Source: an uncultured Bacilli bacterium (GTDB lineage Bacteria > Bacillota_I > Bacilli_A > RF39 > UBA660). From it: 64,000 nt of DNA. The translations under genes and the position numbers were made by a program. The stretch is from the NCBI GenBank assembly GCA_934153945.1, contig CAKPFM010000006.1, positions 27,318 to 91,317 of the forward strand, in the 5' to 3' direction. Shown here piece after piece: positions 43,171 through 56,450 of the stretch; the stretch's first letter is position 1, and each line of letters starts with the position of its first letter. Below the pieces are notes generated by a model, which saw nothing but the letters and a program-made list of their open reading frames with translations, was not told where the DNA came from and did no database searches.

Positions 43171-44523
43171 CTATATTTCCCCTTTTACACTCCATACTGC
43201 TGATGGAGAACTATTAACAACAGTGGTACTTGTCCAATATCTATAAGTAATTGAATCAGCTATATTACATCCATAATTTGTACAATCTCTAGTATAATCT
43301 AATAATCATGCATATTTACTAGATTCTTGAATAGTAGTTTCTTTTGCATATATATTAATTTTAATGTAACCAGAACCAATTGTTGTTTTGCCATCAAAAT
43401 CTTTAGTTCCTGCTATTTTAGCTATTTCATCTGCTATTATTAATCTTACGTTTAAATTACTATTCCATGTAGCTTTATTAGATGATAAAGAATTATTTAC
43501 TTTACTCATTATATCATCCAAGCTTTCACTTGATTTCCATTGAATAGATGCTGTTGTATTATGATCTAATATCAAATTTACTGTTGATGATGATTTATTA
43601 TCATTAAATGTATACCATTTCATACATCCTATTTTTGTTCCAGTTGTACTTATTGCTTCACTTTCATTACAGTTTTTATTTGTTTCTGAATTATAATAAA
43701 TTGCCGTACCATTAACATATACTATATTTATTAGTATTGTTGACTGTTTATTATTTTTTGTTGTTGCCGTTATTATTATTGTTTCTACTTTTTTACCTGT
43801 TACTAATCCAGAATCTGACACTGATGCTATTTAATTATTTAAACTAGTCCATGTTACTGATTTGCTTGATACATCATTAGGTTCTAATATACCTATTAAT
43901 TGTATTTTATTATCAATAAATAATTCTTTATTTTCTATCGTTATTTCTGTTGCTTCTAGTATTACAATTATATTTATCTCTTTTTTAATATTTTTATTTT
44001 CTGCACTTGTTATAATTATTTTTGCTGTTCTATTTTTAATTGCTGTTATTATTCCTCTTTCATTGATTGTTACTATTGATTCATCACTACTTTTATATAT
44101 TAAATCTTTATTTGTAGCATTATTTGGTTCAAAAGTTATTACTATTTCTATCGTACTTTCTTTTTCATTGTTTTATCTGATAAATTCACTATTATATTTT
44201 CTAATTTTACTGTTCCTAATTTAATAACAGTCATTTCTGAATTTTGAGTATTAACCTCATATTCACCAAATGTTAGTTTTCCTTCTACTATTTCATATGT
44301 ATTATGTATCATTTAATTTTATATAATCTTCTTTTTCAGAGGTTTTTGTTTCATTTGTTTCAACTAAATCATTTAAAGCTTCTATAGCTTCAGAATTTAT
44401 CATTATCACAGTTGTTACATTGTATTTTTCATTTGGTATTAAATTATCATTATTTGTTAGCGCAGTTGTCCCTATATACACTTCTACTGTTAATAATTCT
44501 ATTAATGTAAAACATTTCTTCAT
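43171..44523 (-). pseudogene. Decayed modular pilin-like gene: truncated prepilin N-terminus, two Big_2-like Ig domains, DUF1566/Lcl-C-like C-terminus
   Basis: MKKCFTLIELLTV|EVYIG: the hydrophobic helix is internally deleted. Frameshifts near 44300 and 44165. In-frame TAA (WTSLNN*IASVSDSG) near 43835. In-frame TGA at 43306-43308 (SKYA*LLDYTRDC...YWTSTTVVNSSPSAVWSVKGEI). Big_2-like segment: ITFEPNNATNKDLIYKSSDESIVTINERGIITAIKNRTAKIIITS. Confidence 0.75.
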
Positions 44524-44543
44524 TATACCTCTTTTATATTATC

Positions 44544-44570
44544 AAAAAAAGAAAACCTTCAAGATTTTCT
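44544..44570 (-). terminator. Terminator after the LRR-pilin gene
   Basis: Minus strand: AGAAAA...TTTTCT stem followed by a T6-7 run, 14 nt after the stop codon. Confidence 0.55.
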
Positions 44571-44583
44571 TTACATTTATATT

Positions 44584-45876
44584 TTATTTTGAAACAGTAA
44601 TATTTCCATCACTATGTTTTATAATACCTGTTTCAAAAATATCACTATTTGTTGATTTAATTTCTGTTATTGCTGACCAATTATAAGAATTACCAGTGCC
44701 ATTAATTATAGAAGTTAAATTAGGATTTGAATTATATTCTTTATTTTTTATAAAAGTATTATCTTCAATTGTTAAATCTTTTGATGACCCTAAATTAATA
44801 GTAACTAAATCATTAAGTAAAAAAGCACCACTTTGAATAGTTTTTAAATTTGAATTGCCACTTAAATCTAAATTTTTAAGTTTATTTTGACCAAATGCTT
44901 CATAAGAAATAACTTCTAACTTAGAATTTGACAAATTGATTTCTGAAATATTATTAGATGCGAAAGCTGCATTTCCTATTATTTTAATATTTGAATTCCA
45001 TTTAACATTATCTAATTTATTTTTAAAAAAACTTAAATTTCCTATTTCTTCTAATTGATTAGCATGTGATAAGTCTAAAGATACTATATTACCTGTTCCT
45101 GAAGTTGCCTCAAAACGACATCCATAATATCCATCGTTTATACTTTTAACTTCATCATTTCCAACTATTACATGATTACCATCTAAATTATAGCAAATTT
45201 TTTTAGTATCACTAGTAAAAGTATATCTAATATATTGATCATATTTAATGTTATTAGCTATAGCATATTCATATGTATAATCATAATAACAATAATTACC
45301 TGCTTCAGCTAATTTAGAACAAATACCGGTTGTTCTATCAATAACCCTTACAATTTCTTTGTTGTAATCACTTACAAAAGCCGAATCTCCTATCTTCTTA
45401 ACAGGAACACCATTTATTGAATAAGGAATAACAACATCCAATCCATAACTTTCATCATATCTAGTAATTGTACCTGTCTTTGAATCAAAAGTAAAAGCTT
45501 TTTCTTTATCCATATATTTTTCACATTCACTTGATGGAATTTCAGATATAGACAACTTTGTATCATCAAAATCTTTAGTAACACAATAATTATCATTATA
45601 AACAAGGACTAATGACTTGCCATTTTTAATACTAATATAACCACCTTTTAAATCTTCACCCTTAAAATTTAAACCACTCTCTGGAAAATAATAATCATTA
45701 CCTTTTTCCAAAGAATCATATTCAGTTGCTTCCAATATTCCATTTACTGAAACTAAAAAAGATGATTTTTTACTATTTTCAATAATATTTGAAATAAGTG
45801 GTACTGATATCAATGCTATTATTGCTAAAATTACGATAACTGCTAACAATTCTATTAATGTAAAACCTTTTTTCAT
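44584..45876 (-). CDS. Modular type IV pilin-like protein with a BspA-type leucine-rich-repeat C-terminal module
   Basis: Start refined to ATG 45874-45876 (GGAGGA upstream). MKKGFTLIELLAVIVILAIIALISVPLISNIIEN is a prepilin motif. C-terminal repeats IGDSAF..., IGNLSFFKNKL, IIGNAAFASNNISEINL, VISYEAFGQNKLKNLDL and IQSGAFLLNDL are of LRR_5/BspA type. Confidence 0.8.
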   Translation of the reverse strand: MKKGFTLIELLAVIVILAIIALISVPLISNIIENSKKSSFLVSVNGILEATEYDSLEKGNDYYFPESGLNFKGEDLKGGYISIKNGKSLVLVYNDNYCVTKDFDDTKLSISEIPSSECEKYMDKEKAFTFDSKTGTITRYDESYGLDVVIPYSINGVPVKKIGDSAFVSDYNKEIVRVIDRTTGICSKLAEAGNYCYYDYTYEYAIANNIKYDQYIRYTFTSDTKKICYNLDGNHVIVGNDEVKSINDGYYGCRFEATSGTGNIVSLDLSHANQLEEIGNLSFFKNKLDNVKWNSNIKIIGNAAFASNNISEINLSNSKLEVISYEAFGQNKLKNLDLSGNSNLKTIQSGAFLLNDLVTINLGSSKDLTIEDNTFIKNKEYNSNPNLTSIINGTGNSYNWSAITEIKSTNSDIFETGIIKHSDGNITVSK

Positions 45877-46004
45877 ATATCCTCCAACATCCAAACAAAG
45901 TATACCAAATAAACAATATAAAATCAACTTAACTTGTAAATTGTGTGTAAACATTATTATTAACTTTTATTAAATAGTTTAGTATAATATTAATTGGTGA
46001 TTTT

Positions 46005-47477
46005 ATGAATTTATTTAAATATACTAATTCAAATAAAAGATACTATACAGTAGATTTTTATAATAAAAATAGATTTAATGATAAAATATTCAAAATTAGT
46101 TTAAATGCTGGATTTACTTGTCCTAATAGAGATGGAAAAGTTGGTACTGGTGGATGTATATATTGTTCTAACTTAGGTAGTGGTGATTTTGCAGGAAATG
46201 TCAATGATGATTTAATAACACAATTTAATAAAATAAAAGAAAAAATGAATCATAAATGGCATGGTAAATATATTGGATACTTTCAAGCAAATACTAATAC
46301 TTATGCACCTGTTGAAGTGTTAAAGCAAAAATTTGAACCAATTTTAAAATTAGATAATGTTGTAGGATTAGCTATCGCTACTAGACCTGATTCAATTAGT
46401 GATGAATGTTTAGAATATTTAATAGATTTAAACAAAAGAACTTACTTAACTATAGAACTAGGACTTCAAACTATTCATGAAGAAACATCTAATTTAATTA
46501 ATAGATGTCATACTTTAGAATGTTTCAATGAATGTGTTGAAAAGTTAAGAAAAAATAATATTAACGTAATAGTTCATTTAATAAATGGATTACCTTATGA
46601 AACAAAAGAAATGATGTTAGAAAATATAACATATTTAAATAAATTAGATATACAAGGAATTAAGATACATATGTTACATATTTTAAAAAATACTAAATTA
46701 GAAAAATTATATAAAGAAAAACCATTTAAAATATTAACTGAAAAAGAATATGTAAATATTGTATGTGATCAAATAGAATTATTAAATCCAGATATTGTAG
46801 TACATAGATTAACGGGTGATCCTGATCCTAGTAACTTAATAGAACCAACATGGTTAACTAATAAAATAACAGTACTAAATGATATTGATAAAGAACTAGC
46901 TAGAAGAAATACTTATCAAGGATTTAATAAAAGTATTTTAAATAAAGTTAAACAAATTATTGATTTATCTTTAAGAGAAAAAGATATTGTAATAGACGCT
47001 ACTATAGGTAATGGATATGATAGTTTATTTATAAGTAATTATATTAAAGAAGGACATTTATATGGATTTGATATTCAAGATATAGCTATTAATAATACTA
47101 AAAAATTATTAAAAGAAAATAATTTTAGTAATTATACTTTAATAAAAGCTAATAATAAATATATAAAAAAAAAATTACCTAATCTAATTAATAAAGTTAG
47201 TTTAATTATATATAATTTAGGATATCTACCTGGAGGTAATAAAAATATCACTACTAATTATAAAGATACAATATATTCAATAAAAGAAGGATTAAGTTTA
47301 TTAAATAATAAAGGTATCATTTTAATAACTATATATCCAGGACATAAAGAAGGATTAAAAGAAAGTATAGAAATTAATAAGTTCTTAAATAAATCTAAAA
47401 TTAATTATAATATTTATAGAAACACAGATAATATAGAAGCACCATATTTAATAGAAATAAAAGCGAATACATTTTAG
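46005..47477 (+). CDS. mnmL: Fusion of a TIGR01212-type radical SAM protein (YtqA/MnmL-like) with a SAM-dependent methyltransferase (YtqB/MnmM-like)
   Basis: N-terminal FTCPNRDGKVGTGGCIYCS cluster motif and a TIM-barrel-like region up to ~aa 310. C-terminal IDATIGNGYDSLF, GFDIQ, IYNLGYLPGGNKNITT and TIYPGHKEG match the YtqB family. Confidence 0.7.
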   Translation: MNLFKYTNSNKRYYTVDFYNKNRFNDKIFKISLNAGFTCPNRDGKVGTGGCIYCSNLGSGDFAGNVNDDLITQFNKIKEKMNHKWHGKYIGYFQANTNTYAPVEVLKQKFEPILKLDNVVGLAIATRPDSISDECLEYLIDLNKRTYLTIELGLQTIHEETSNLINRCHTLECFNECVEKLRKNNINVIVHLINGLPYETKEMMLENITYLNKLDIQGIKIHMLHILKNTKLEKLYKEKPFKILTEKEYVNIVCDQIELLNPDIVVHRLTGDPDPSNLIEPTWLTNKITVLNDIDKELARRNTYQGFNKSILNKVKQIIDLSLREKDIVIDATIGNGYDSLFISNYIKEGHLYGFDIQDIAINNTKKLLKENNFSNYTLIKANNKYIKKKLPNLINKVSLIIYNLGYLPGGNKNITTNYKDTIYSIKEGLSLLNNKGIILITIYPGHKEGLKESIEINKFLNKSKINYNIYRNTDNIEAPYLIEIKANTF

Positions 47478-47489
47478 TATTCGTTTTTG
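47464..47489 (+). terminator. Terminator after the radical-SAM/methyltransferase fusion gene
   Basis: CGAATAC-atttta-GTATTCG hairpin (the stop codon sits in the loop), followed by TTTTTG. Confidence 0.65.
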
Positions 47490-47708
47490 TATATTAGAAT
47501 AATTCTTTTTATCATGATATATGATATATATAATTTACATACATGAAGTATTTTTAGAATAATATATTCTTCAAAATTATTTATTACATCTTTAATATCA
47601 CAATTATCATAATTATATCTTGTTAAAACATTATGTAATTTTGTACTTCTCTTTTTCAATGGTTATTGATTTAATTCATTGTTACTTTGATATATATTTT
47701 TTTCAATA

Positions 47709-48767
47709 TTAATTCTTTCTAAATATTAAAATCTTACGTTTATGTTCTTTTTCTTTTTTTTCAACATAGTCATCAGACTCTTTTAATGTTTTTAAAGCCT
47801 CTCTTACCTTGTCCTTTAATTTTAGATATTGAAAATCTGACTTTATTCTAGGATAATCAAACTCATCCAATATAGTATCTTCTTCATCAAATTCTTTTTC
47901 TAATATTGAATCAGTTATATTTAAATCTTTTGATATATATTTTATTAATTGTGTTCCAGATAAATAATTTGTTTCTAGTGAATAATTGTTTAAATATTCT
48001 ACTATCAAGTGCATTATATTATTTCTTTTTGTTTCATTATATTTGTCAAAATTACTTATTATTTTTTCTAAATCTTTTTTTATTTTTTCTATAATTTCTA
48101 TATTAGTTTTTAGATAATTAGCAAGATGTGAGTCATAAGATTCTACATATAATAAAATAAAATTTATTACTCCTATTTTTTCTATTTTTTCTTTATCTTT
48201 AAATTTAGAATGTATTAATTCTTCTAATGAATAATCTTCTTCACTAAAGATTTCATTAACCATGTTTTTAGCAATATAGTCAATAATTATTACTCTACCT
48301 GCATATACATCAGCAAAATAATCAAATCCCATTTGATAATAATCTTTAACTTCTTGACTATCATTTCTACTATCTAAAATATAAGCAGTTCTTAAACCAT
48401 TATATTTACTTTTAGCACTTATATAACTAGCATTTTCTGATATACTTGAATAATCTTTTCCTAATAATTCACTAACAATAATATCTATTTCAAATTTATC
48501 ATCTTCATTATTAGATAAAATAGAAAAATTGTGTGCTACTTTTTTGATAAATGTTTTATCATTTTTAAACTTTAATATAAAAAATTTTATTAATTCAAAA
48601 TTACTTTTTAATTTATCATCACATAAATCATACATCTTTTTATCATTACTAATATCTGTAACTTCTTTAATAAAAATATAATCGTTTTCTAATTCATCTA
48701 TATCATATCCATCAATCTCATTTCCAGTTATATAATCATATAATATCTTTTTACTATATTTACTCAT
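47709..48767 (-). CDS. Hypothetical alpha-helical protein with a possible HEPN-type RNxxxH motif (last gene of the orphan four-gene cluster)
   Basis: Start refined to ATG 48765-48767 (GGGGGAA SD), 1 nt after the stop codon of the sigma-like gene. Lys/Glu/Asp-rich helical sequence. ETKRNNIMHLIVEY contains R-N-x3-H. Confidence 0.6.
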   Translation of the reverse strand: MSKYSKKILYDYITGNEIDGYDIDELENDYIFIKEVTDISNDKKMYDLCDDKLKSNFELIKFFILKFKNDKTFIKKVAHNFSILSNNEDDKFEIDIIVSELLGKDYSSISENASYISAKSKYNGLRTAYILDSRNDSQEVKDYYQMGFDYFADVYAGRVIIIDYIAKNMVNEIFSEEDYSLEELIHSKFKDKEKIEKIGVINFILLYVESYDSHLANYLKTNIEIIEKIKKDLEKIISNFDKYNETKRNNIMHLIVEYLNNYSLETNYLSGTQLIKYISKDLNITDSILEKEFDEEDTILDEFDYPRIKSDFQYLKLKDKVREALKTLKESDDYVEKKEKEHKRKILIFRKN

Positions 48768-48768
48768 T

Positions 48769-49722
48769 TTAATTCCCCCAATCATTATATATATTTTGTC
48801 TTCTACCTGGACTTCTTAATTTTCTTAGTGCTGTAGCTTCTATTTGTCCAATTCGTCCTCCACTTTTTCCATAAATCATTCCAACTTGTTCTAAATTCAT
48901 TATCTCTCCATCTTCAAGGCCATATCTTTTAATCAATACACCTATCTCTCTTTCTTGTAACCCGCTATCATTTATTATGTAATCAATAGACTTTTGTATT
49001 AAATAATTATTGATAAGTTCTGTTTCAAAATCACACTCACTTGCCATTGTTGGACTGATATTTTCTCTTAATGAAATATCTATTAGTAAATGTCTCATGA
49101 ATTTTAATTTTGTTTTAGGTGGAAGATTTTCATCATCTATATTTACTTTAGAATAAATATTTTGAAATGTTTCATAACATTTATAAAAATAAGTTTTTAA
49201 ATTATTAAAGTAATATTCATCAAATCTATAACCAAATCTACTTTTCTTAATTGTATCTAAATATTCTTCAAATAAAACCTCATCTTTATTTCTTTTTAAA
49301 AATAGAAATAATTTCATCAAATCTCCAAAATTATCTAAACCTATAATTTGACTTATTTCAATATCTTCTTTTTGATGTACAAACATATTACTTAAGTATG
49401 CATAATATGTACTTCCAAACAAATTAGAAAAAACTGAAATATTTAATAAGTTTCCATTGTCAATTTCATTTATATAAAATTCTATAGTTGCAGAAATAAT
49501 ATCATCCATATCATAACTACCATTTTCTAAAATATCTAAATTACTATTTTTTAAATAGTTTAAAACAGCATATAATGTTGAATTAATAATATCATTTCTT
49601 ATTTTTATTTTCTTATTATTGTCAGTTTCATTTATCATTTTTTTATATAGTTCCTGCGCTTCATTTAGTTTTAATTTTTGATAACCACTTATTCTTTCAA
49701 ACCATAACCTTAATTTATCCAT
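48769..49722 (-). CDS. Divergent sigma-70 family (RpoD-like) sigma factor
   Basis: C-terminal LQEREIGVLIKRYGLEDGEIMNLEQVGMIYGKSGGRIGQIEATALRKLRSPG aligns with region 4.2 of RpoD ([27 protein letters not shown]). The N-terminal NEAQELYKKM...RNDIINSTLYAVLNYLKN is region-2-like. GGGGGAG SD. Confidence 0.7.
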   Translation of the reverse strand: MDKLRLWFERISGYQKLKLNEAQELYKKMINETDNNKKIKIRNDIINSTLYAVLNYLKNSNLDILENGSYDMDDIISATIEFYINEIDNGNLLNISVFSNLFGSTYYAYLSNMFVHQKEDIEISQIIGLDNFGDLMKLFLFLKRNKDEVLFEEYLDTIKKSRFGYRFDEYYFNNLKTYFYKCYETFQNIYSKVNIDDENLPPKTKLKFMRHLLIDISLRENISPTMASECDFETELINNYLIQKSIDYIINDSGLQEREIGVLIKRYGLEDGEIMNLEQVGMIYGKSGGRIGQIEATALRKLRSPGRRQNIYNDWGN

Positions 49723-49736
49723 AACTACTCCCCCTT

Positions 49737-50405
49737 TTATAAAGTTAAAATCTTTGATAATTTTTTAACTTTTCTTCTACTTTTAATAAAACACACATAT
49801 ACATCATTTATAGTATCATAATTAACAATACATCCCTGTTCTAAATTTTGTTTTAATAAATTTAGTTGATTTTCCTTTTCAAGAATATTTAAATCATTTA
49901 CATATCCACAATATCCAACAATAATGTCATAGCCATTAAAATGTAACAAGGGCCATTCACTTATTTGTTCATAATAATATGGATTATGTGTCATAAATCT
50001 ATCAACGACCTGACCCTTTACTTCAGAACCTGTTATAATTGGTTCCCCTTGATAGACTAACAATTCATTATTTTCTTTATTTAGTGTTTCTCCGAATGGT
50101 GATATAATTCTTGTTGTTGGCAATACGATTGAATCATATTTACCCTTTCCAACTTCAGCAATATTAGAGTCATTTATATCAATATCATAATTAGCAAAAT
50201 ATTTTTTTAATTCTTCTAACGCTTTATTTTGTTCATATAGCCAATGTGCAAAATCATTTATATAATCTTCAGAAGATATATCTATTTTTTTTATTCCTTT
50301 CGCACTATTAAATTGACTCATCAAATAATAAAAATACTTTGTAATATTATCACTCCTTCCTGAGGGCAGGAGATTGATAATACACTCTTTTTTATTCTTT
50401 GTCAA
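49737..50405 (-). CDS. Hypothetical protein of the sigma-factor cluster; start codon uncertain
   Basis: The maximal ORF starts at TTG 50405, which coincides with a consensus -35 hexamer. The AGGAG SD at 50353-50357 is followed 7 nt later by in-frame ATT (50345). The first ATG is at 50321. No recognisable domain. Confidence 0.55.
   Translation of the reverse strand: MTKNKKECIINLLPSGRSDNITKYFYYLMSQFNSAKGIKKIDISSEDYINDFAHWLYEQNKALEELKKYFANYDIDINDSNIAEVGKGKYDSIVLPTTRIISPFGETLNKENNELLVYQGEPIITGSEVKGQVVDRFMTHNPYYYEQISEWPLLHFNGYDIIVGYCGYVNDLNILEKENQLNLLKQNLEQGCIVNYDTINDVYVCFIKSRRKVKKLSKILTL
50377..50405 (-). promoter_or_regulatory. Near-consensus internal SigA-type promoter within the four-gene cluster
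   Basis: Minus strand: TTGACA(50405-50400)-N17-TATTAT(50382-50377), in the 31-nt gap region after the stop codon of the 478-aa gene. Confidence 0.5.
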
Positions 50406-50436
50406 GTTTTTTTATAAAAAATAAAAAATTGTATTT

Positions 50437-51873
50437 CTACAATCTTTTATTTATAGAGGAATTCATATTGCATCCTTGTTCTAAATCTTTAAAATAATTT
50501 ATTAATTCGGTAAAATCTACTTTCTTGAAATCTTCAAAAACTTGTCTAATAAATTCTTTTTGTTTTTCTTCAGAGAATATTTTTTCTTTAGTAGAACCAA
50601 ACGATCCTTCATCAGGTTCTGAAACAACTTTTGTAGTAATAGCCGCCTTTAATTTTTCAATTTTTTGCATATCTTCTATATCACTTGGTGATTTAATAAG
50701 CAATGATTCAAAATATCTTCTTTCATCACCTTTTGAAATATTATTTAATAAAGTTGTATATTTGTATTGATCTGATAAATTTGAGTGTGATACAAAAACA
50801 TCATATTGTGAAGAATCAGTAGTTCCATTCTTAACATTAATTTCTTTTGTTTTTATAAATTCATATCCGTCTGGAAGGCTTAAAAGCATAGATAATTCCT
50901 CTAATGGTTTAAATTTTATAAATGCTTTAGCTTTAATATTTGCCTTTGAATAAAATCTACTAGGTTGAATTTTATCAGGAAAATTTATAACACCATGTTC
51001 ATGTTTTTCTAATTGTTTCTTAATTCTATCTTCTTCATATTCAAATAAATTACCATTTTTTGTATCTAGAAATTTATGTAAAATAGATATATTTGCCTCA
51101 TGATACGGATCTAAAATATATAATTCACTTGATAAACTTTTAATTTTATTCATATCTTTAACATCATTTTTTTTATTATTTTCTTTTTTTAATTCTTTTC
51201 TTAAAGATAAAATTCTTTTTTCCGTTTCAGATAAATGGAGTGCATCAGCCAAAATACCATTCTTATCTGACATTATATTCTCTAATGTTAATCCTAGTAA
51301 ATGCGCTAATTCAGATTCTTTAATCCTAAATTTTATTTCTTGTTCATTAGAAAATGTGGCAATAAGGGTTCTATTATTATAAACTTCATAATACAATCTT
51401 AATGCTTCATTTAGTAAATCCATTGTATTTTGTATATTATCAATAGAAAATCCTAATTGATCAGGTGCAACATTTTTACTATTAAATGACATTTTATTTT
51501 CTTCAATAGATACATAATCATTAAAACGTGATTGCTCCATTAAATAAGATTTAGAATAATATTCAATTAATTTACTAAAATAACTTGTAAAAAGGGTTAA
51601 TAATTCTGAATTATTATAAATGATATTATATGTTTCAGAGTTTGGTAATAAATACTCATTTAAATAGTTTAATATACAAGTTTTTAACTCATCATAAGTC
51701 TTTATAGACAAATCTTTACTTATATTAGTAGATATCATTAATAAATAATATTCAACATTATATAACCCTTTAGAGTTTAATTCATAATTGATTCTTTGCA
51801 TAGTTTGTACAAAGTTATTAATTTTTGTTTCTGTATTTAATATTTCAGACATATTTTCAAATTCATTATTCAT
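50437..51873 (-). CDS. Hypothetical 478-aa protein (first gene of the sigma-factor cluster)
   Basis: GGGAGG SD 6 nt upstream of the ATG. Helical, Asn/Lys/Glu-rich. No P-loop and no recognisable catalytic motif. Confidence 0.6.
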   Translation of the reverse strand: MNNEFENMSEILNTETKINNFVQTMQRINYELNSKGLYNVEYYLLMISTNISKDLSIKTYDELKTCILNYLNEYLLPNSETYNIIYNNSELLTLFTSYFSKLIEYYSKSYLMEQSRFNDYVSIEENKMSFNSKNVAPDQLGFSIDNIQNTMDLLNEALRLYYEVYNNRTLIATFSNEQEIKFRIKESELAHLLGLTLENIMSDKNGILADALHLSETEKRILSLRKELKKENNKKNDVKDMNKIKSLSSELYILDPYHEANISILHKFLDTKNGNLFEYEEDRIKKQLEKHEHGVINFPDKIQPSRFYSKANIKAKAFIKFKPLEELSMLLSLPDGYEFIKTKEINVKNGTTDSSQYDVFVSHSNLSDQYKYTTLLNNISKGDERRYFESLLIKSPSDIEDMQKIEKLKAAITTKVVSEPDEGSFGSTKEKIFSEEKQKEFIRQVFEDFKKVDFTELINYFKDLEQGCNMNSSINKRL

Positions 51874-51898
51874 TATTGACCTCCCGCATTCTAGTAAG

Positions 51899-51907
51899 AT
51901 TATACCA
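51899..51907 (-). promoter_or_regulatory. Extended -10 promoter element upstream of the four-gene cluster
   Basis: Minus strand: TGgTATAAT about 25 nt upstream of the ATG at 51873. The -35 region is weak. Confidence 0.4.
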
Positions 51908-52373
51908 TATATTAAAAATTATTAAAATAGAATGAATTTATTTCTGTAATAGAGCTATAAAATCTATAACTAACAAATATTATTTAATATATATATTGTT
52001 TATTCTTTTCCTATAAAAAAATCAAGAAAATAATTCTTGATTTTTTCTTATATAACTTCAAATTTATGAAGTTGAATTATAATATTTAATAGAAATTAAA
52101 AAAGCAAGTGAACCATATAAAATATTCCACTTGTCAAGGAATAAATAAAAAAAATGATTTTTGTACAATACAAAAATCATCTTCTTCAAAATAACTAAAT
52201 TAACCAATAAATTATACCACTATTTTGTCCATTTTATGGGGTACAATTTATTAAGTACTCAACATTTGCGTATTAAGTATTCCCATCTTATTTTATGCAA
52301 GTTTCCTTGACTACATACTAATGATAACATAATTTATTGAGATTATCAAAAAAGTATTTTTTTAAATTTTTAG

Positions 52374-52922
52374 TTATAATACTACCAAAATTAATAAATC
52401 AATTATTAAAATTAATAATGCCGAGCAAAAAGTTAAATAGAATGCCCATTTTTTATTACAATATCTTAAAACATATGATAGTTTAGGATTATTTGAATCA
52501 TAATAAACATCTATTTCCGAATTTATTGGGTATAATTTTTCAATTGGATTATTGTAAACACCAACAAAAGAATTAGAAGTTCTATTTATTTCTAACATTT
52601 GATTTTCTTTTTTATATTCCATTTCATTCTTACTGATTGGATTATTCTTTGTTATTATTTTATACGCTTTATATTCAGGACCTACAACTTTATATTCTTT
52701 ACCATTTACAATATAAAATACAATAGGTAAATGAATCCCACTATTTTCCCCGCCACGAGTTGTTAATGTATATTTTTTGATTATTCCTTTAACTTTCGAA
52801 GTACATCTTTTTTCTTGTATTATATATTTATAGAATAGTTTAAATGACAAAACAAATAACACAATTGAACCAATTGACAATAATGTTCCAAAAACAATTT
52901 TATCCATTAATATTTCACTCAC
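52374..52922 (-). CDS. DUF3592-like membrane protein
   Basis: N-terminal TM segment, central beta-rich region (GIIKKYTL..IHLPIVFYIVNGKEYKV), C-terminal TM segment. This is the typical DUF3592 layout. Confidence 0.5.
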   Translation of the reverse strand: MSEILMDKIVFGTLLSIGSIVLFVLSFKLFYKYIIQEKRCTSKVKGIIKKYTLTTRGGENSGIHLPIVFYIVNGKEYKVVGPEYKAYKIITKNNPISKNEMEYKKENQMLEINRTSNSFVGVYNNPIEKLYPINSEIDVYYDSNNPKLSYVLRYCNKKWAFYLTFCSALLILIIDLLILVVL

Positions 52923-52980
52923 ACTTTCTAATTTAATAATTAATTTAATAATATTTTCTAACTTTCTCTAATTTTTTTAT

Positions 52981-53694
52981 CTATTTCATAGTGCAAGTAT
53001 ATGAGCCACCCGCAAGAGTAAGTTTCATATAATTACCATTATATACACTTATATACCAATTAACAGAATCTTCGTTTGAATTTACACCATTTGTAACAAA
53101 TTTTTCAAAATTTATTTTTACGGTATATTTTTTTACTTTGCCACTATGTTCATTCGTATACAAACTATCTTCAACACTTTCTTCTTCTATAGAATAATTA
53201 CCTATTAAATAATATTTTTCTGGATTTGAATCTAATTCAGCTTTAACTCTACCATTTTTTTCAAAAGTGTATGTTCTAGAACTATCCGAACCATATTTAC
53301 TGCAAGACCATACATTATTAAAATCATATTCAGGAACTTGTTTAGATTCTTGCAAATTTGATAAAAAAATTGTAAATACTAAATATAATATAACAAAAAT
53401 ATAACTAATTAAAATAACCCAAATCATTCCTACAATTCTATTTTTAAGTACTTTATTAGTAATCTTTTTTTTGAATTTTAATCCTAAAATTATCGATAAA
53501 ACCATTATCAAAAATGATACACAAAAAATTATTGCATCAAACTTCAAATATACCAAACCTGTTAATATATCACCAATAAAACTTCCAGTTTCTATTCTTT
53601 TAAGGCAAATATATATAATAATTGATATAAAAAATAATACATAACTTATTATATAACTAATTAAAAAACCTTTACTTAATTTTTCTTTTTCCAT
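52981..53694 (-). CDS. Membrane protein with four N-terminal TM segments and a C-terminal beta-rich extracytoplasmic domain
   Basis: 237-aa ORF with hydrophobic segments up to ~aa 110, then a Tyr/Asn/Ser-rich domain ending ..GGSYTCTMK. Confidence 0.5.
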   Translation of the reverse strand: MEKEKLSKGFLISYIISYVLFFISIIIYICLKRIETGSFIGDILTGLVYLKFDAIIFCVSFLIMVLSIILGLKFKKKITNKVLKNRIVGMIWVILISYIFVILYLVFTIFLSNLQESKQVPEYDFNNVWSCSKYGSDSSRTYTFEKNGRVKAELDSNPEKYYLIGNYSIEEESVEDSLYTNEHSGKVKKYTVKINFEKFVTNGVNSNEDSVNWYISVYNGNYMKLTLAGGSYTCTMK

Positions 53695-53791
53695 TTATTT
53701 TTTCCTACCTTTCGAATATATTGTATCACACTTTGTCGTATTTTCTTACAAAACTTCATTTTTTTACATAAAATTGACAATGGTGATTAAC

Positions 53792-53967
53792 ATGAATTTT
53801 GAAAGATTATTCTTTTTAAGAGAAAAAAAGACTTAACACAAGAAAATATGGAAAAAATACTAAATGTCAGCAGATTTTCTTTACCTCATGTTCGTAAAAA
53901 ACTTATAAGAGTTAATTTATATCTTGAAATTAAAAATATCCAATTTGATCCGTCTTTATTAAAATAA
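53792..53967 (+). pseudogene. Frameshifted XRE-family helix-turn-helix regulator remnant
   Basis: ATG 53792 gives MNFERLFFLREKKT, then a stop. After the A-run at 53823-53829 the reading continues in another frame as DLTQENMEKILNVSR (HTH helices), with a degenerate tail. Confidence 0.5.
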
Positions 53968-54103
53968 GTAGATATATAAAGTATTATAATAATTATAGAT
54001 ACTAATGGAATTTAAAGATGATGATACTGAAATCATCTATTTGAATTCATTGCCTAAAACCCTCTTTTTTTATTTGTCCTTGACAAGGGATTTTAATAAT
54101 AGT

Positions 54104-54667
54104 TCACTTGTTATAATTAATAAGTAATTTATCTACTAATTTTCTATGAATTGGTCTTATAAAATCACACATAGATTCATCATCAACATCTTCGAACGGA
54201 ATCCATTTTACGCCACTACTTTCATCTTTTCTAAAAACAAGTTCTTGTTCTTCAGCGGCTTCCAATAGAAATACAACATCAAAATGAAGGTGAGCTGAAA
54301 CATATTTACCCCTTTTTATATGTCCTTTAACTGGAGCAGATTGTATTGAAAAAATAGAATTATCTAACACTTTTGTTTTTAATCCAGTTTCTTCTTCTAC
54401 TTCACGAACTGCTACACCTAATAAATCATTTTCTCCATCAGCATGTCCTCCCGGATATATCCATCCATCATTGATATTATGATAAACAACTACCATTTTG
54501 TTTCTTTTTTTATTTACAACGAATGCAGATGAACTGAAATGACCAAACACATTATTTCTAGTTAATACATCATCAAATTCGTCAATAAACCTTAAAAATT
54601 GTTCTTTATCCTTTTCTTCTTGTTCGTTAAAGGGAACATACTTTTCTATTTCTTGTTTTAAATTCAT
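54104..54667 (-). CDS. NUDIX hydrolase
   Basis: Nudix box GGHADGENDLLGVAVREVEEETGL. Confidence 0.8.
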   Translation of the reverse strand: MNLKQEIEKYVPFNEQEEKDKEQFLRFIDEFDDVLTRNNVFGHFSSSAFVVNKKRNKMVVVYHNINDGWIYPGGHADGENDLLGVAVREVEEETGLKTKVLDNSIFSIQSAPVKGHIKRGKYVSAHLHFDVVFLLEAAEEQELVFRKDESSGVKWIPFEDVDDESMCDFIRPIHRKLVDKLLINYNK

Positions 54668-54669
54668 AC

Positions 54670-55068
54670 TTATTCACTCTTCCTTTTGTATAATTCAATC
54701 CATCCCATATCTAAAAAATTTTTAATTTCATCATAACAACTTAATAATTTATCAGGCATATTTAATATATATATTTTGATATTTTTATTGTGTATTAAAT
54801 TTAATATAACAGCGTAAGTTAATTCTGACATACCACTAGTTCCTATATAACCTTTAATACCATTTTTTTCTTCATTCATTAAAAAGAAAATATCAGTTTT
54901 TTCAATATTTGAATAAAAGTTTTTATATATTAAAGGTAACTCTTCTTTATAATTTTCTTTTAAAATTAATTTAGGATAATCTAAAATTTCATAATTTTTA
55001 AATTTTTCTATCCAATATTCTACTTTATCTCGTAATTTAGCACTTCCAGATATAACAATTTTTTCCAT
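54670..55068 (-). CDS. Small Rossmann-like protein, tentatively nucleoside 2-deoxyribosyltransferase-like fold
   Basis: 132 aa. KIVISGSAKL start and YIGTSGMSELTYA pattern. Ends 2 nt before the NUDIX gene. The assignment is weak. Confidence 0.3.
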   Translation of the reverse strand: MEKIVISGSAKLRDKVEYWIEKFKNYEILDYPKLILKENYKEELPLIYKNFYSNIEKTDIFFLMNEEKNGIKGYIGTSGMSELTYAVILNLIHNKNIKIYILNMPDKLLSCYDEIKNFLDMGWIELYKRKSE

Positions 55069-55138
55069 ATTATCACCAAATATAATATAACATACGAATA
55101 TACATAAATCAATAATCCATAATAATACTGGTGATTCT

Positions 55139-56080
55139 ATGAAAATAAGATTAGGATATTCTTGTATTAGTGATACTATTAATATTACAACATCAACACC
55201 TTATACATATACTAAATTTAAAAGTGAACAAGATTATATAAAATTAGATAGAATTATTAAATCTAATTTATTAAATTTGTATGAAATATTAAAATATAAT
55301 GAAAAAAATAATATTCATTTTTATAGATTATCATCAAATTTAATTCCTCTAGCAACTAAAAAAGAAGTTGATTTCGAATATATAAAAAAATATAAAAATT
55401 ATTATAATTTAATATCCAAATTTATAAATAAAAATAATATGAGAATAGATTTTCATCCTGATCAATTTTGTGTTTTAAATAGTGTTAATAATGATGTTGT
55501 TGAAAGTTCTATAGAAATATTAAAATATCATTATAATTTACTAGAAGCTATGAATATAAAAAATAAAGTATTAGTATTACATATTGGTAGTAATGCTTTT
55601 GGTAAAGATAATTCTATTAAAAGATTTATCAATAATTTTAATAAATTAGATGATAATATTAAACAAAGTATTGTTATTGAAAATGATGATAAAATATTTA
55701 ATATATTAGATTGTTTAGAAATATCAAATAAATGTAGTATTCCTATTGTATTAGATTATCATCATCATAATTGTAATGGTAAAGATATTGAATTAACAAA
55801 TTATATTGAAAATGTTTTTTCAACATGGAAGAATATTAATCCAAAAATACATTTTTCAAGTCCTAAAAATAATACTAAAAAATATATGAGAAGTCACAAT
55901 GACTATATAAATGTTAATTCTTTTATTCAGTTTATAGAAAGTATTAAATATTTAAATTATGATATAGATATTATGATTGAAGCTAAAAAAAAGGATGAAG
56001 CATTATTTAAACTCATCCGTGAATTAAAATATAAAACTAATTATAAATTTATTGATGATACTACTTTTATAGTTAAATAA
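55139..56080 (+). CDS. uvdE: UV damage endonuclease UvdE/UvsE
   Basis: RLGYSCIS, HFYRLSSNLIPLAT, FHPDQF, VLHIGS, VIENDD, VLDYHHH. Confidence 0.85.
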   Translation: MKIRLGYSCISDTINITTSTPYTYTKFKSEQDYIKLDRIIKSNLLNLYEILKYNEKNNIHFYRLSSNLIPLATKKEVDFEYIKKYKNYYNLISKFINKNNMRIDFHPDQFCVLNSVNNDVVESSIEILKYHYNLLEAMNIKNKVLVLHIGSNAFGKDNSIKRFINNFNKLDDNIKQSIVIENDDKIFNILDCLEISNKCSIPIVLDYHHHNCNGKDIELTNYIENVFSTWKNINPKIHFSSPKNNTKKYMRSHNDYINVNSFIQFIESIKYLNYDIDIMIEAKKKDEALFKLIRELKYKTNYKFIDDTTFIVK

Positions 56081-56450
56081 TTTTAGACATTTGAAATTAA
56101 TTTTGAATTCCGAACTTAACCAACTAGCAAATTCAAAAGCTATATCATAGTGAGCAAATGTTCCTTTACTATATTTTCCACTACTTGGAATAATACCAAT
56201 AGCATTATACTTTTCCTTCCATTTTTTTGGTGTCATAGTAAATCTATTATATGGAACTTCATCATTTTTAATTCTATGTGATTCCACGGAATTAAAATTT
56301 TGATTGTTAATTTCTTCCCATAGTGCATAAAATTCAAATGAATTTCTACTACTCATCAAATTTCTTATAACATCAGATGGATCTTCTGGGTTTGTATATC
56401 TAGCTAAATCAGTTAAAGAAATATATTCTATTTTTAAATCAATAATATAA
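56024..56450 (-). pseudogene. KilA-N-domain protein fragment (mobile-element or phage remnant)
   Basis: The open frame reads ..EYISLTDLARYTNPEDPSDVIRNLMSSRNSFEFYALWEEINNQNFN...GKYSKGTFAHYDIAFEFASWLSSEFK, typical of KilA-N family proteins. It has no credible start codon or N-terminal strands, and its C-terminus degenerates and overlaps uvdE. Confidence 0.45.

What the first reader, a model, noticed from the sequence alone, without database searches (positions are those of the whole stretch)
47709..51907. Orphan four-gene cluster built around a divergent RpoD-like sigma factor, with a possible HEPN RNxxxH motif in the last gene
Seen in sequence: four co-oriented genes (478, ~200-222, 317 and 352 aa) have strong SDs and 1-31-nt gaps. 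The cluster is preceded by an extended -10 promoter (TGgTATAAT) and by a 500-bp AT-rich spacer containing two terminator hairpins. Downstream is a further non-coding stretch.

The 317-aa product has an unmistakable sigma-70 region 4.2 (NLEQVGMIYGKSGGRIGQIEATALRKLRSPG). The highly conserved TRERIRQIE is changed to SGGRIGQIE. Its region 2 is diverged.

The other three proteins are helical and Asn/Lys/Glu-rich. They have no P-loop, no TM segment and no family I can name. The last one contains KRNNIMH, which matches the HEPN RNase catalytic motif R-[NDHQ]-x3-H.

Inference: a self-contained module combining a dedicated sigma factor with three unknowns, one possibly an RNase, is reminiscent of mobile-element regulatory cassettes or of toxin/defence modules. 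The neighbours are accessory (DUF3592 protein, pseudogenes), consistent with an island. I cannot assign a function. A single short motif in a low-complexity protein has a non-negligible chance occurrence.
Basis: partly seen in the sequence, partly recalled or inferred. Interest (0 to 1): 0.65.

Follow-up and report, generated by a model that had tools for sequence, protein, structure and literature searches.

The report
Mobile four-gene sigma-factor cassette
This is a real, conserved cassette from an uncultured gut bacterium, pairing a degenerate copy of the main sigma factor with three proteins of unknown family; it moves between genomes inside defence-gene islands, and the suspected HEPN RNase motif is a chance match.

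Summary
The four minus-strand genes are real: A 478 aa, B about 202 aa, C 317 aa, D 352 aa. They recur together in at least five diverged lineages of low-GC gut Bacilli.

C has a clear sigma-70 region 4 that resembles SigA or RpoD. Its regions 2 and 3 are too diverged for Pfam. A, B and D match no Pfam, PHROG, PADLOC, NCBIfam or PDB family. D gives a confident all-alpha model with no structural neighbour.

The RNNIMH motif in D is not conserved even in close homologues, and nothing HEPN-like was found. That part of the finding is rejected.

The cluster is two transcription units, not one operon:
- A has its own extended -10 promoter and a terminator.
- B-C-D has a TTGACA-17-TATTAT promoter and a leader hairpin that covers the Shine-Dalgarno (SD) sequence. 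B starts at ATT.

The recurring core is the C-D pair. Related loci hold A-B-D, B-C-D, C-D, or D or A alone.

In related genomes the cassette sits in elements carrying a large serine recombinase. These are inserted at one site of an amidase gene, next to Hachiman or GmrSD/HEPN and Fic genes.

Best reading: a mobile accessory cassette built on a sigma/partner switch, possibly for defence. The function is untested.

The parts
51899..51907 (-). Extended -10 promoter of gene A (TGgTATAAT)
   Evidence: Read directly. The TATAAT is conserved upstream of A in six diverged loci; the TG extension is present in the window, L013, L015/L018 and L019, but not in L009 or L024. Promoter-like sites as a whole are not enriched in this AT-rich DNA: 43 found against 54.9 expected. 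The support is therefore conservation, not the scan.
50437..51873 (-). Gene A, 478 aa, unknown family; central alpha/beta segment with invariant His191/Gly194 in the motif ELxHLLG
   Evidence: ORF. No Pfam, PHROG, PADLOC or NCBIfam hit. 11 word-indexed homologues and 54 representatives in 1.84 billion proteins. Invariant columns come from alignment A4. The AF2 model is poor (pLDDT 56.7) and its fold search is uninformative.
50413..50450 (-). Hairpin plus U-run overlapping the stop codon of A: intrinsic terminator separating A from B-C-D
   Evidence: -10.7 kcal/mol, z -5.35. Equivalent hairpins occur in L013 (z -4.25), L009 (z -3.87) and, with a different sequence, in L015 (z -2.88).
50377..50405 (-). 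Internal promoter of the B-C-D unit: TTGACA-17-TATTAT
   Evidence: This is the best promoter match in the region, 11 of 12. TTGACA-17-TAnnAT is conserved at the same place in L013, L009 and L015.
50353..50372 (-). Leader hairpin CUCCUGCC-CUCA-GGAAGGAG that pairs the SD of B with an upstream anti-SD
   Evidence: The leader AATCTCCTGCC..AGGAG is conserved in four loci whose B proteins are 37-72% identical. All five tested leaders fold with the SD inside a stem, at -6.4 to -12.9 kcal/mol. The z-scores are modest, -0.1 to -2.5. This is suggestive, not proven.
49737..50345 (-). Gene B, about 202 aa, unknown family, probable ATT start codon
   Evidence: The ORF runs from TTG 50405. Homologues start at the position of window ATT 50345, with GTG in L009 and ATG in L015 and others. 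L013 also has ATT there, with an in-frame stop upstream and no canonical start before 45 conserved residues. The SD GGAAGGAG lies 7 nt upstream of the ATT. There are 9 homologue clusters and no Pfam or PDB hit.
48769..49722 (-). Gene C, 317 aa, sigma-70-family protein derived from a SigA/RpoS-like sigma; regions 2 and 3 degenerate
   Evidence: Sigma70_r4 at 5.3e-9. RpoD C-terminal models score 1e-11 to 5e-13. The PDB SigA/RpoD region 4 alignment is. The N-terminus aligns colinearly but weakly (7.8 bits) to RpoD regions 1.2-2. Homologous partners of D in L038 and L041 are full-length sigmas: RpoS/SigA at 1e-34, with Pfam r2 and r3.
48814..48963 (-). Region 4 (4.1-4.2) helix-turn-helix of C; recognition helix reads SGGRIGQIE instead of TRERIRQIE
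   Evidence: Residues 254-303 match Pfam Sigma70_r4. Homologues read SGERIRQIE, SGARIGKIE, TKDRVRQIE and TKNRLFQIE.
47709..48767 (-). Gene D, 352 aa, all-alpha protein of unknown fold; N-terminus weakly DUF4116-like; start 1 nt after the stop of C
   Evidence: The start at 48767 is fixed by the conserved N-terminus MSKYSKK. There are 46 homologue clusters. The AF2 model has pLDDT 86.4, pTM 0.77 and 22 helices. There is no PDB or BFVD neighbour; the best E-values are 0.46 and 0.50. DUF4116 is weak in 8 of 23 members, best 0.0015, and gives no hit for the window protein.
48009..48029 (-). KRNNIMH, the proposed HEPN motif: a chance match
   Evidence: It is not conserved. It lies within helix 240-266 of the model.
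47464..47483 (-). Terminator-like hairpin in the convergent gap between D and the radical-SAM/methyltransferase gene
   Evidence: This is the only terminator-like site the scan reported; 0.3 were expected.

Best explanation
The region holds a horizontally mobile accessory cassette of uncultured low-GC gut Bacilli, made of two transcription units.

**Unit 1.** Gene A has its own extended -10 promoter and its own terminator.

**Unit 2.** B-C-D is driven by a near-consensus sigma-A-type promoter.

**The recurring core.** C is a SigA/RpoS-derived sigma-like protein. It keeps the region-4 helix-turn-helix that reads the -35 box, but its region 2 has degenerated. D is a cytoplasmic all-alpha protein, and its start codon sits 1 nt after, or overlaps, the stop codon of C.

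I infer that C and D form a sigma/partner switch, with D acting as an anti-sigma factor or a stabilising co-factor. I infer that B and A are the regulated or effector parts.

B looks deliberately kept at low translation, because a leader hairpin covers its SD and it starts at AUU. It is established knowledge, from infC autoregulation, that IF3 discriminates against AUU starts. B output would therefore rise when translation initiation control is disturbed.

The cassette rides in integration-hotspot islands next to known anti-phage genes, and its parts are shuffled between lineages. The most likely biological role is therefore in genetic conflict: phage or mobile-element defence, or an addiction-type module.

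**Shown:** gene content, co-occurrence, the conserved signals that define the two transcription units, the mobile contexts, and the absence of HEPN.

**Inferred:** the C-D interaction, the roles of A and B, and the defence function.
For: **Co-conservation of the four genes at 26-89% protein identity**
- Shown: **C-D adjacency**
- It holds in every locus that has C, apart from the rearranged L020 (order A'-C-B-D): window, L013, L015, L023, L024, L026, L027, L034, L037-L039, L041, L042, L044 and L049.
- The gaps between C and D are tiny or overlapping.

**Descent of C**
- The partners of D range from canonical full-length sigmas (L038) to the degenerate window form.

**Transcription signals**
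- The promoter, terminator and leader are conserved across loci.
- B needs an ATT start.

**Mobile and defence contexts**
- Elements of 10 to 12.6 kb are inserted at codon 87-89 of an Amidase_3-LysM gene.
- They carry a large serine recombinase plus Hachiman (L013), or GmrSD_N with HEPN_RiboL-PSP and Fic (L024); in L019 a recombinase element at the same site lies next to Fic, GNAT and methyltransferase genes and A.
- A STAND NTPase sits next to A in L018.
- An MqsA/SocA antitoxin-like gene lies upstream in L009.

**Mosaic history**
- Between the window and L013, dS is 0.84 for A, 0.63 for B, 0.10 for C and 0.44 for D.

**Selection**
- dN/dS is 0.2-0.5 in the unsaturated comparisons. The genes are maintained but evolve fast.
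Against: - No protein of the cluster matches a PADLOC model, apart from region 4 of C.
- No enzymatic or toxin domain was identified in A, B or D.
- D-family genes stand alone in ordinary chromosomal neighbourhoods in many genomes, for example next to sbcCD-like or relA-like genes. C-D pairs with canonical sigmas sit among housekeeping genes. Both fit a cellular regulatory role.
- L009 keeps A-B-D without C, so the sigma is dispensable for retaining the others.
- All related loci were found by searching with A or D. The link with defence genes is therefore not a controlled enrichment test.
- In the window species the cluster is fixed at one site, with no recombinase nearby.
- The leader hairpins have weak z-scores.
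- No expression data could be obtained.
Confidence: 0.4

Rival explanations
1. The cluster is a lineage-specific cellular alternative-sigma regulon with no role in conflict. C is an alternative sigma, D is its anti-sigma or co-factor, and A and B are members of its regulon, for example in stress, cell-envelope or DNA-uptake functions. Presence in mobile islands would then be incidental.
For: - C-D pairs with canonical full-length sigmas, and lone D genes, lie among housekeeping genes.
- The cluster is present at the same chromosomal site in every contig of the window species.
- There are no PADLOC hits.
- A and D have no relatives in phage, viral-contig or plasmid collections.
Against: - A-B-C-D lies inside recombinase-bearing elements at an integration hotspot, with varying defence cargo.
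- The distribution is very sparse: 54 representatives of A in 1.84 billion proteins.
- Parts are lost or shuffled (A-B-D, A'-C-B-D, B-C-D, A alone), and the dS pattern is mosaic.
- The DNA-reading residues of C vary between close relatives.
Confidence: 0.27
2. The cluster is a regulatory or maintenance module of the serine-recombinase integrative elements themselves. A sigma-like factor and its partners would control excision, replication or transfer. The window copy would be a stranded remnant of such an element.
For: - D is followed by the large serine recombinase in L024, and by HTH_36, a 40-aa gene and the recombinase in L013.
- L019 has HTH_36 and a recombinase in the same island.
- Sigma-like regulators are known in Tn916-type elements (my own knowledge, not tested here).
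- The window has a decayed KilA-N gene nearby.
Against: - Most loci show no recombinase within 8-10 kb: window, L009, L015, L020, L023, L034 and L038.
- The position of the recombinase relative to A-B-C-D differs in each element, which suggests accretion at a hotspot rather than a fixed backbone.
- The ORFs remain intact under purifying selection where no recombinase is present.
Confidence: 0.15
3. This is the first reader's idea: a toxin or defence module whose last gene is a HEPN RNase using RNNIMH as its catalytic motif.
For: - The motif is present at D residues 248-253.
- D is helical.
- The cassette occurs in defence-type islands.
Against: - The motif is not conserved. Homologues read RYEMMN, EWEMMN, RKITIE and NIYEEM.
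- None of the invariant columns of the D family fall in the motif.
- The chance frequency is about 0.02-0.04 per protein of this size, which gives 1-2 matches per window.
- The confident model has no HEPN neighbour in PDB or BFVD.
- No Pfam HEPN family matches the family consistently: a single marginal match to the Csm6 6H domain in 1 of 23 members, E 0.027, was treated as noise. The true HEPN protein in L024, by contrast, is detected at 1.8e-15.
Confidence: 0.02
4. The cluster is a decaying, functionless remnant. C would be a dead sigma paralogue and the others junk ORFs in AT-rich DNA.
For: - Regions 2 and 3 of C are undetectable by Pfam, and three base-contacting residues of region 4.2 are Gly.
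- L020 carries a deleted A and a fragment of B.
- L018 shows fused remnants of B and D.
Against: - The reading frames stay open across lineages at 26-89% identity, with dN/dS 0.2-0.5.
- The SDs, promoters, terminator and leader are conserved.
- D folds confidently.
- The sequences are identical in 16 or more contigs from different samples.
Confidence: 0.06

Closest known systems
Group 1/2 sigma-70 factors (SigA/RpoD, RpoS)
   Same: - Region 4.1-4.2 of C aligns to RpoD/SigA over about 57-80 residues, including the C-terminal KLRxPxR tail.
- The N-terminus is colinear with regions 1.2-2.
- Homologous partners of D in L038 and L041 are full-length sigmas of this type.
   Different: - In the window protein, regions 2 and 3 are not detectable by Pfam.
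- The -35 recognition helix reads SGGRIGQIE, with Gly at three positions that contact bases in E. coli sigma-70 (R584, E585 and R588; that numbering is from my own knowledge).
- There is no region 1.1.
- Core binding and promoter melting are untested.
Sigma factors with a dedicated adjacent partner (sigma/anti-sigma pairs such as TcdR/TcdC or SigF/SpoIIAB; sigma/co-factor pairs such as SigO-RsoA, ComX-ComW, or Mycoplasma genitalium sigma-20 with RrlA/RrlB)
   Same: - The sigma gene is immediately followed by a translationally coupled gene.
- The partner family co-varies with the sigma gene across lineages.
   Different: - D has no sequence or fold similarity to any known anti-sigma factor or co-factor.
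- D also occurs without an adjacent sigma.
- The comparison rests on gene arrangement and my own knowledge of those systems, not on a test.
MZA anti-phage system (MzaA, a sigma-70-family protein)
   Same: NCBIfam and PADLOC MzaA models match C at 1.2e-12 and 2.8e-5. Both are sigma-like proteins found in defence contexts.
   Different: - The match covers only the last 84 or so of 726 model positions, which is region 4. It scores 47.6 bits against a cut-off of 800.
- No MzaB-E equivalents are present.
- C is not a member of this family.
HEPN RNase toxins (Rx4-6H)
   Same: One RNxxxH string occurs in an alpha-helical protein.
   Different: The motif is unconserved and no HEPN fold or profile match was found.
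DUF4116 (PF13475) helical repeats
   Same: The N-terminal 30-80 residues of D-family members give weak DUF4116 hits in 8 of 23 members, best E 0.0015.
   Different: - The window protein itself gives no hit.
- The remaining 270 or so residues are unrelated to DUF4116.
- DUF4116 has no known function.
Gene-intervening elements excised by large serine recombinases (skin in sigK, SPbeta in spsM, gin in gerE)
   Same: In L013, L024 and L019 the cassette lies in or next to an element that splits a coding gene (Amidase_3-LysM) at one codon and carries a large serine recombinase. The architecture matches that described in PMC5595907, PMC4191935 and PMC5025042.
   Different: - The window copy is not in such an element.
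- Whether these bacteria sporulate, or excise the element, is unknown.
- The cargo here is defence genes rather than prophage genes.

Membership tests
Sigma-70 family | Region 4 (4.2 helix-turn-helix that binds the -35 box) | tested here: met
   Pfam Sigma70_r4 at 5.3e-9 and 35.9 bits, against a cut-off of 24.1. All 11 C-family members match. PDB RpoD region 4 matches at 8e-11.
Sigma-70 family | Region 2 (core binding, -10 recognition and melting) | tested here: inconclusive
   There is no Pfam Sigma70_r2 hit for the window protein; only 2 of 11 family members hit. The family profile aligns residues 3-108 colinearly to RpoD 297-395, but at only 7.8 bits.
Sigma-70 family | Binds RNA polymerase core and directs promoter-specific initiation | not testable with these tools
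   This needs biochemistry or genetics.
HEPN RNase | Conserved Rx4-6H catalytic motif | tested here: not met
   R248, N249 and H253 all vary in homologues of 58-76% identity. No invariant column lies in the motif.
HEPN RNase | HEPN four-helix up-down bundle | tested here: not met
   The model has pLDDT 86.4. Foldseek against PDB and BFVD gives best E 0.46 and 0.50, all generic helical repeats. No Pfam HEPN family matches consistently; one marginal Csm6 6H hit in 1 of 23 members at E 0.027.
MZA defence system | Full-length MzaA plus MzaB-E partner genes | tested here: not met
   Only region 4 matches, at 47.6 bits against a cut-off of 800. A, B and D have no PADLOC hits.
Any catalogued anti-phage system (PADLOC-DB v2) | Profile match of the component proteins | tested here: not met
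   A, B and D match 0 families. C matches only the MzaA region 4.
Defence-island resident (guilt by association) | Statistically enriched proximity to known defence genes | tested here: inconclusive
   Hachiman, GmrSD_N with RiboL-PSP HEPN, Fic, a STAND NTPase or a Panacea-type antitoxin lies within 10 kb in L013, L024, L019, L018 and L009. There is no background control. The loci were ascertained through A or D, and several loci show no such neighbours.
DUF4116 | Pfam PF13475 match above threshold | tested here: not met
   The window D gives no hit. 8 of 23 homologues give weak hits, best E 0.0015.
PBECR4 nuclease (lead for A) | Profile match over the His-containing core | tested here: not met
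   1 of 29 family members matches at E 0.014, among equally weak unrelated hits. Ten divergent members scanned separately gave nothing.
Toxin-antitoxin module | A toxic component neutralised by a cognate partner | not testable with these tools
   Only indirect hints exist: SD sequestration and an ATT start for B.

The most novel reading that the evidence does not exclude
A previously undescribed type of conflict system in which a degenerate SigA paralogue (C), held by a new all-alpha partner (D), acts as the sensor or switch. It could work, for example, as a decoy for phage factors that target the host sigma or RNA polymerase. The output would be B, whose translation is normally blocked by an SD-masking leader and an AUU start and is released when infection disturbs initiation control. 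A would be a second, separately expressed effector that depends on its invariant His. Three of the four proteins would found new families.
Probability: 0.15. Interest if true: 0.8.

Novelty: new variant of a known kind. Interest (0 to 1): 0.45.

Why it matters
If the cassette is a working sigma/partner switch carried on defence islands, it would add a transcription-factor-based module to the known repertoire of mobile conflict systems. It would also give function to three protein families that currently have no annotation, no solved relative and no structural neighbour.

It comes from a poorly studied, uncultured branch of human-gut Bacilli. Few regulators are characterised in that group (my own knowledge).

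The related loci also reveal an integration hotspot inside an amidase gene that collects defence genes. That hotspot could be mined for further candidates.

As it stands, this is an uncharacterised conserved gene cassette, of which metagenomes contain many. Its main specific hook, the HEPN motif, has been removed.

Tried and rejected
1. **HEPN in D.** Rejected on conservation, chance frequency and fold.
2. **Profile and family searches for A, B and D.** Pfam, PHROGs, PADLOC and NCBIfam found nothing, either on single proteins or on whole alignments. Profile searches against PDB sequences gave only noise.
3. **Structure of A.** The 10-sequence alignment gave pLDDT 56.7, and its Foldseek search was meaningless. 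B was never modelled.
4. **PBECR4 lead for A.** It stayed at noise level.
5. **Phage or plasmid origin.** A and D have no relatives in IMG/VR, INPHARED phages or PLSDB plasmids.
6. **Internal homology.** Profile-profile comparison found none between A and B or between A and D.
7. **Empty-site test.** Every contig that encodes the identical radical-SAM neighbour also carries the cluster.
8. **RNA families.** No Rfam match in 44000-56000.
10. **Literature.** Searches for MzaA/MzaB and DUF4116 found nothing relevant to this arrangement.
11. **Promoter scan.** Sigma-70-like sites are not enriched in this AT-rich DNA. Promoter calls therefore rest on conservation between loci only.

Full report
**1. 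What is in the sequence**

The window is about 24% G+C throughout. The region 47709-51907 holds four co-oriented minus-strand ORFs:
- A, 51873..50437, 478 aa.
- B, ORF from 50405 to 49737.
- C, 49722..48769, 317 aa.
- D, 48767..47709, 352 aa.

Each gene has a GGAGG-type SD. TGgTATAAT lies at 51907..51899. The 500-bp spacer upstream contains two strong hairpins followed by T-runs, with z -6.9 and -5.2.

The identical C protein is found on 16 contigs from human-gut metagenomes, always in the same neighbourhood. The nearest named relatives are "Bacilli bacterium" MAGs and Clostridium sp. CAG:433.

**2. The four proteins**

*C.* It matches Pfam Sigma70_r4 above threshold (5.3e-9). It also matches the C-terminal part of RpoD/SigA models and PDB chains. 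Regions 2 and 3 are not detected. A profile of 11 family members aligns the N-terminus colinearly with RpoD regions 1.2-2, but at only 7.8 bits. In other genomes the gene in the same position, directly upstream of a D homologue, is a canonical full-length sigma. It matches RpoS/SigA at 1e-34 and has Pfam r2 and r3. C is therefore a degenerate descendant of a SigA/RpoS-like paralogue. Its recognition helix reads SGGRIGQIE, and this stretch varies between close relatives.

*A, B and D.* They have no hit in Pfam, PHROGs, PADLOC or NCBIfam. Their profiles have no hit among PDB sequences.
- A belongs to a small family: 11 word-indexed homologues and 54 representatives among 1.84 billion proteins. 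His191 and Gly194 are invariant in the motif ELxHLLG. Its model was poor, at pLDDT 56.7.
- B has 9 homologue clusters.
- D has 46 homologue clusters. It gives a confident all-alpha model, with pLDDT 86.4 and 22 helices. That model has no neighbour in PDB or BFVD. Only a weak DUF4116-like signal appears at the N-terminus of some members.

**3. The HEPN motif**

RNNIMH is at D residues 248-253. The pattern R[NDHQ]xxxH is expected about 0.02-0.04 times in a protein of this size and composition. It occurs twice among the 51 ORFs of 120 aa or more in the window, so one match in a window scan is unremarkable.

Homologues of 58-76% identity read RYEMMN, EWEMMN and RKITIE at this position. None of the invariant columns of the family lie there. 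The motif sits inside a long helix of a fold that is not HEPN. A genuine HEPN protein in a related locus is detected easily, at 1.8e-15. The HEPN reading is rejected.

**4. Transcription and translation signals**

Comparison of the non-coding DNA between diverged loci shows two transcription units.
- Upstream of A, the TATAAT is conserved in six loci, with the TG extension in the window, L013, L015/L018 and L019 but not in L009 or L024.
- A hairpin plus U-run overlaps the stop codon of A (50450-50413, z -5.35). It is conserved in L013 and L009, and L015 has a different hairpin plus U-run at the same place.
- It is followed by TTGACA-17-TATTAT (50405..50377). This is the best promoter match in the region, and TTGACA-17-TAnnAT is conserved in four loci.
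- The short leader AAUCUCCUGCC..AGGAG is conserved and folds so that the SD of B is paired. The energies are modest, so this is a lead and not a result.

Homologues of B start at the position of window codon ATT 50345, with GTG in L009 and ATG in L015. L013 also has ATT there. It has an in-frame stop just upstream, and no canonical start before 45 conserved residues. B is therefore most likely initiated at AUU. Together with SD masking, this points to deliberately restricted translation.

**5. Who travels with whom**

HMMs for A-D were run over all ORFs of 54 sequences (the fetched loci and the window).

| Arrangement | Where |
|---|---|
| A-B-C-D | Window species, L013, L015, L024 |
| A-B-C-D by gene sizes and Pfam | GCA_016648615 |
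| A'-C-B-D | L020, where A has lost its central His domain |
| A-(lysR)-C-D | L034 |
| A-B-D, C cleanly absent | L009 |
| B-C-D | L023, L027, L049 |
| C-D only | L026, L037-L039, L041, L042, L044 |
| D alone | More than ten loci, among housekeeping genes |
| A alone | L017, L057 |

The constant element is the C-D pair, with overlapping or nearly touching reading frames. A and B are additions found in a subset.

**6. Genomic settings**

In L013, L024 and L019 an Amidase_3-LysM gene is split at codon 87-89, as shown by tblastn with the intact L009 gene. In L013 and L024 both halves are visible and the inserts measure about 10 kb and 12.6 kb; in L019 only the N-terminal fragment is on the contig. 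Each carries a large serine recombinase. The other cargo differs:
- L013: the cassette plus HamA and a helicase (Hachiman).
- L024: the cassette plus GmrSD_N, a RiboL-PSP HEPN protein, two Fic genes, DUF2971 and DUF6602.
- L019: HTH_36, two Fic genes, a GNAT and a methyltransferase, with A at the contig end.

L018 has a 1064-aa STAND-type NTPase next to A. L009 has an MqsA/SocA-type gene upstream.

Between the window and L013, synonymous divergence is 0.84 for A, 0.63 for B and 0.44 for D, but only 0.10 for C. The sigma gene was therefore exchanged recently. dN/dS of 0.2-0.5 in the unsaturated comparisons shows that the genes are maintained but evolve fast.

A and D have no relatives in viral contigs, sequenced phages or plasmids.

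Two caveats apply. All these loci were found through A or D, so this is association without a control. In the window species the cluster is fixed, with no recombinase nearby and no empty site seen.

**7. Interpretation**

The best-supported reading (confidence 0.4) is a mobile accessory cassette built on a sigma/partner pair. C keeps a -35-reading domain. D is its translationally coupled partner. B is a tightly restricted product and A is a separately transcribed one. The cassette probably serves in genetic conflict.

The rivals are:
- An ordinary lineage-specific alternative-sigma regulon (0.27).
- A control module of the serine-recombinase elements (0.15).
- A decaying remnant (0.06).
- The HEPN toxin idea (0.02).

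None of the functional steps is shown. The C-D interaction, RNAP binding by C, the activities of A and B, and any phage phenotype all need experiments or multimer modelling that I could not run.

**8. Novelty and score**

The arrangement is not described in the libraries or papers searched. Three of its four proteins found no relatives in any annotated resource. It is best filed as a new variant of a known kind, namely a sigma factor with a dedicated partner carried on mobile islands.

It is a reasonable candidate for defence-system screening. However, it is one of many uncharacterised cassettes, and the most eye-catching claim did not survive. Interest is 0.45.

Noticed in passing
L013:4452-14510; L024:1024-13671; L019:2671 onward: An Amidase_3-LysM gene is interrupted at the same codon (about 87-89) in three different metagenomic lineages. 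The inserts carry a large serine recombinase and different defence cargo (Hachiman; GmrSD_N with RiboL-PSP HEPN and Fic; Fic, GNAT and a methyltransferase). This is an integration hotspot that resembles the gene-intervening elements of spore formers.
   Followed up: partly
window 48769-49722 compared with L013:9862-10812: The divergence pattern is mosaic. Between the window and L013, dS is 0.10 for the sigma gene but 0.84, 0.63 and 0.44 for A, B and D. This implies recent replacement of C alone.
   Followed up: partly
window 50343-50345 (and L013 about 9248): B most likely starts at ATT, a very rare initiation codon, 7 nt after a strong SD. L013 shares the ATT and has an in-frame stop upstream.
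   Followed up: yes
L020:9638-14147 (Clostridium sp. CAG:433): The copy is rearranged to the order A'-C-B-D. A' has an in-frame loss of the central domain that carries the invariant ELxHLLG motif. A stray fragment of the B N-terminus follows A'.
   Followed up: partly
L018:4982-5119: After an intact A, only the first 26 residues of B and the last 26 of D remain, almost abutting. This is either a deletion of B-C-D or an assembly artefact at the contig end.
   Followed up: no
L009:12084-17582: In the sigma-less A-B-D locus, D is followed by a 326-aa protein with an HEMGH motif, a lipoprotein with duplicated EF-Tu domain 2/3-like modules, and 590-aa and 181-aa unknowns. None has a counterpart in the window.
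   Followed up: no
window 52374-53694 and about 56024-56356; L004: A strain variant (L004) lacks the two membrane-protein genes (237 and 177/182 aa) upstream of A. It also has an intact 291-aa KilA-N gene where the window-type contigs have a 110-aa fragment. The flank of the cluster is therefore variable within the species. The DUF3592 label for the 182-aa protein has no precomputed Pfam support.
   Followed up: no
L038:6870-6931, L041:6890-6965: C-D pairs with a canonical sigma are also preceded by TTGACA-17-TATTAT, the same near-consensus promoter form as in front of B in the window. This fits a SigA-type -35 being read either by SigA or by the SigA-derived C itself.
   Followed up: no
window 44584-45954: The 456-aa neighbour beyond the radical-SAM gene has a type IV pilin-like N-terminal methylation motif (weak N_methyl hit) fused to leucine-rich repeats (LRR_5). 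This is an unusual pseudopilin-LRR combination.
   Followed up: no
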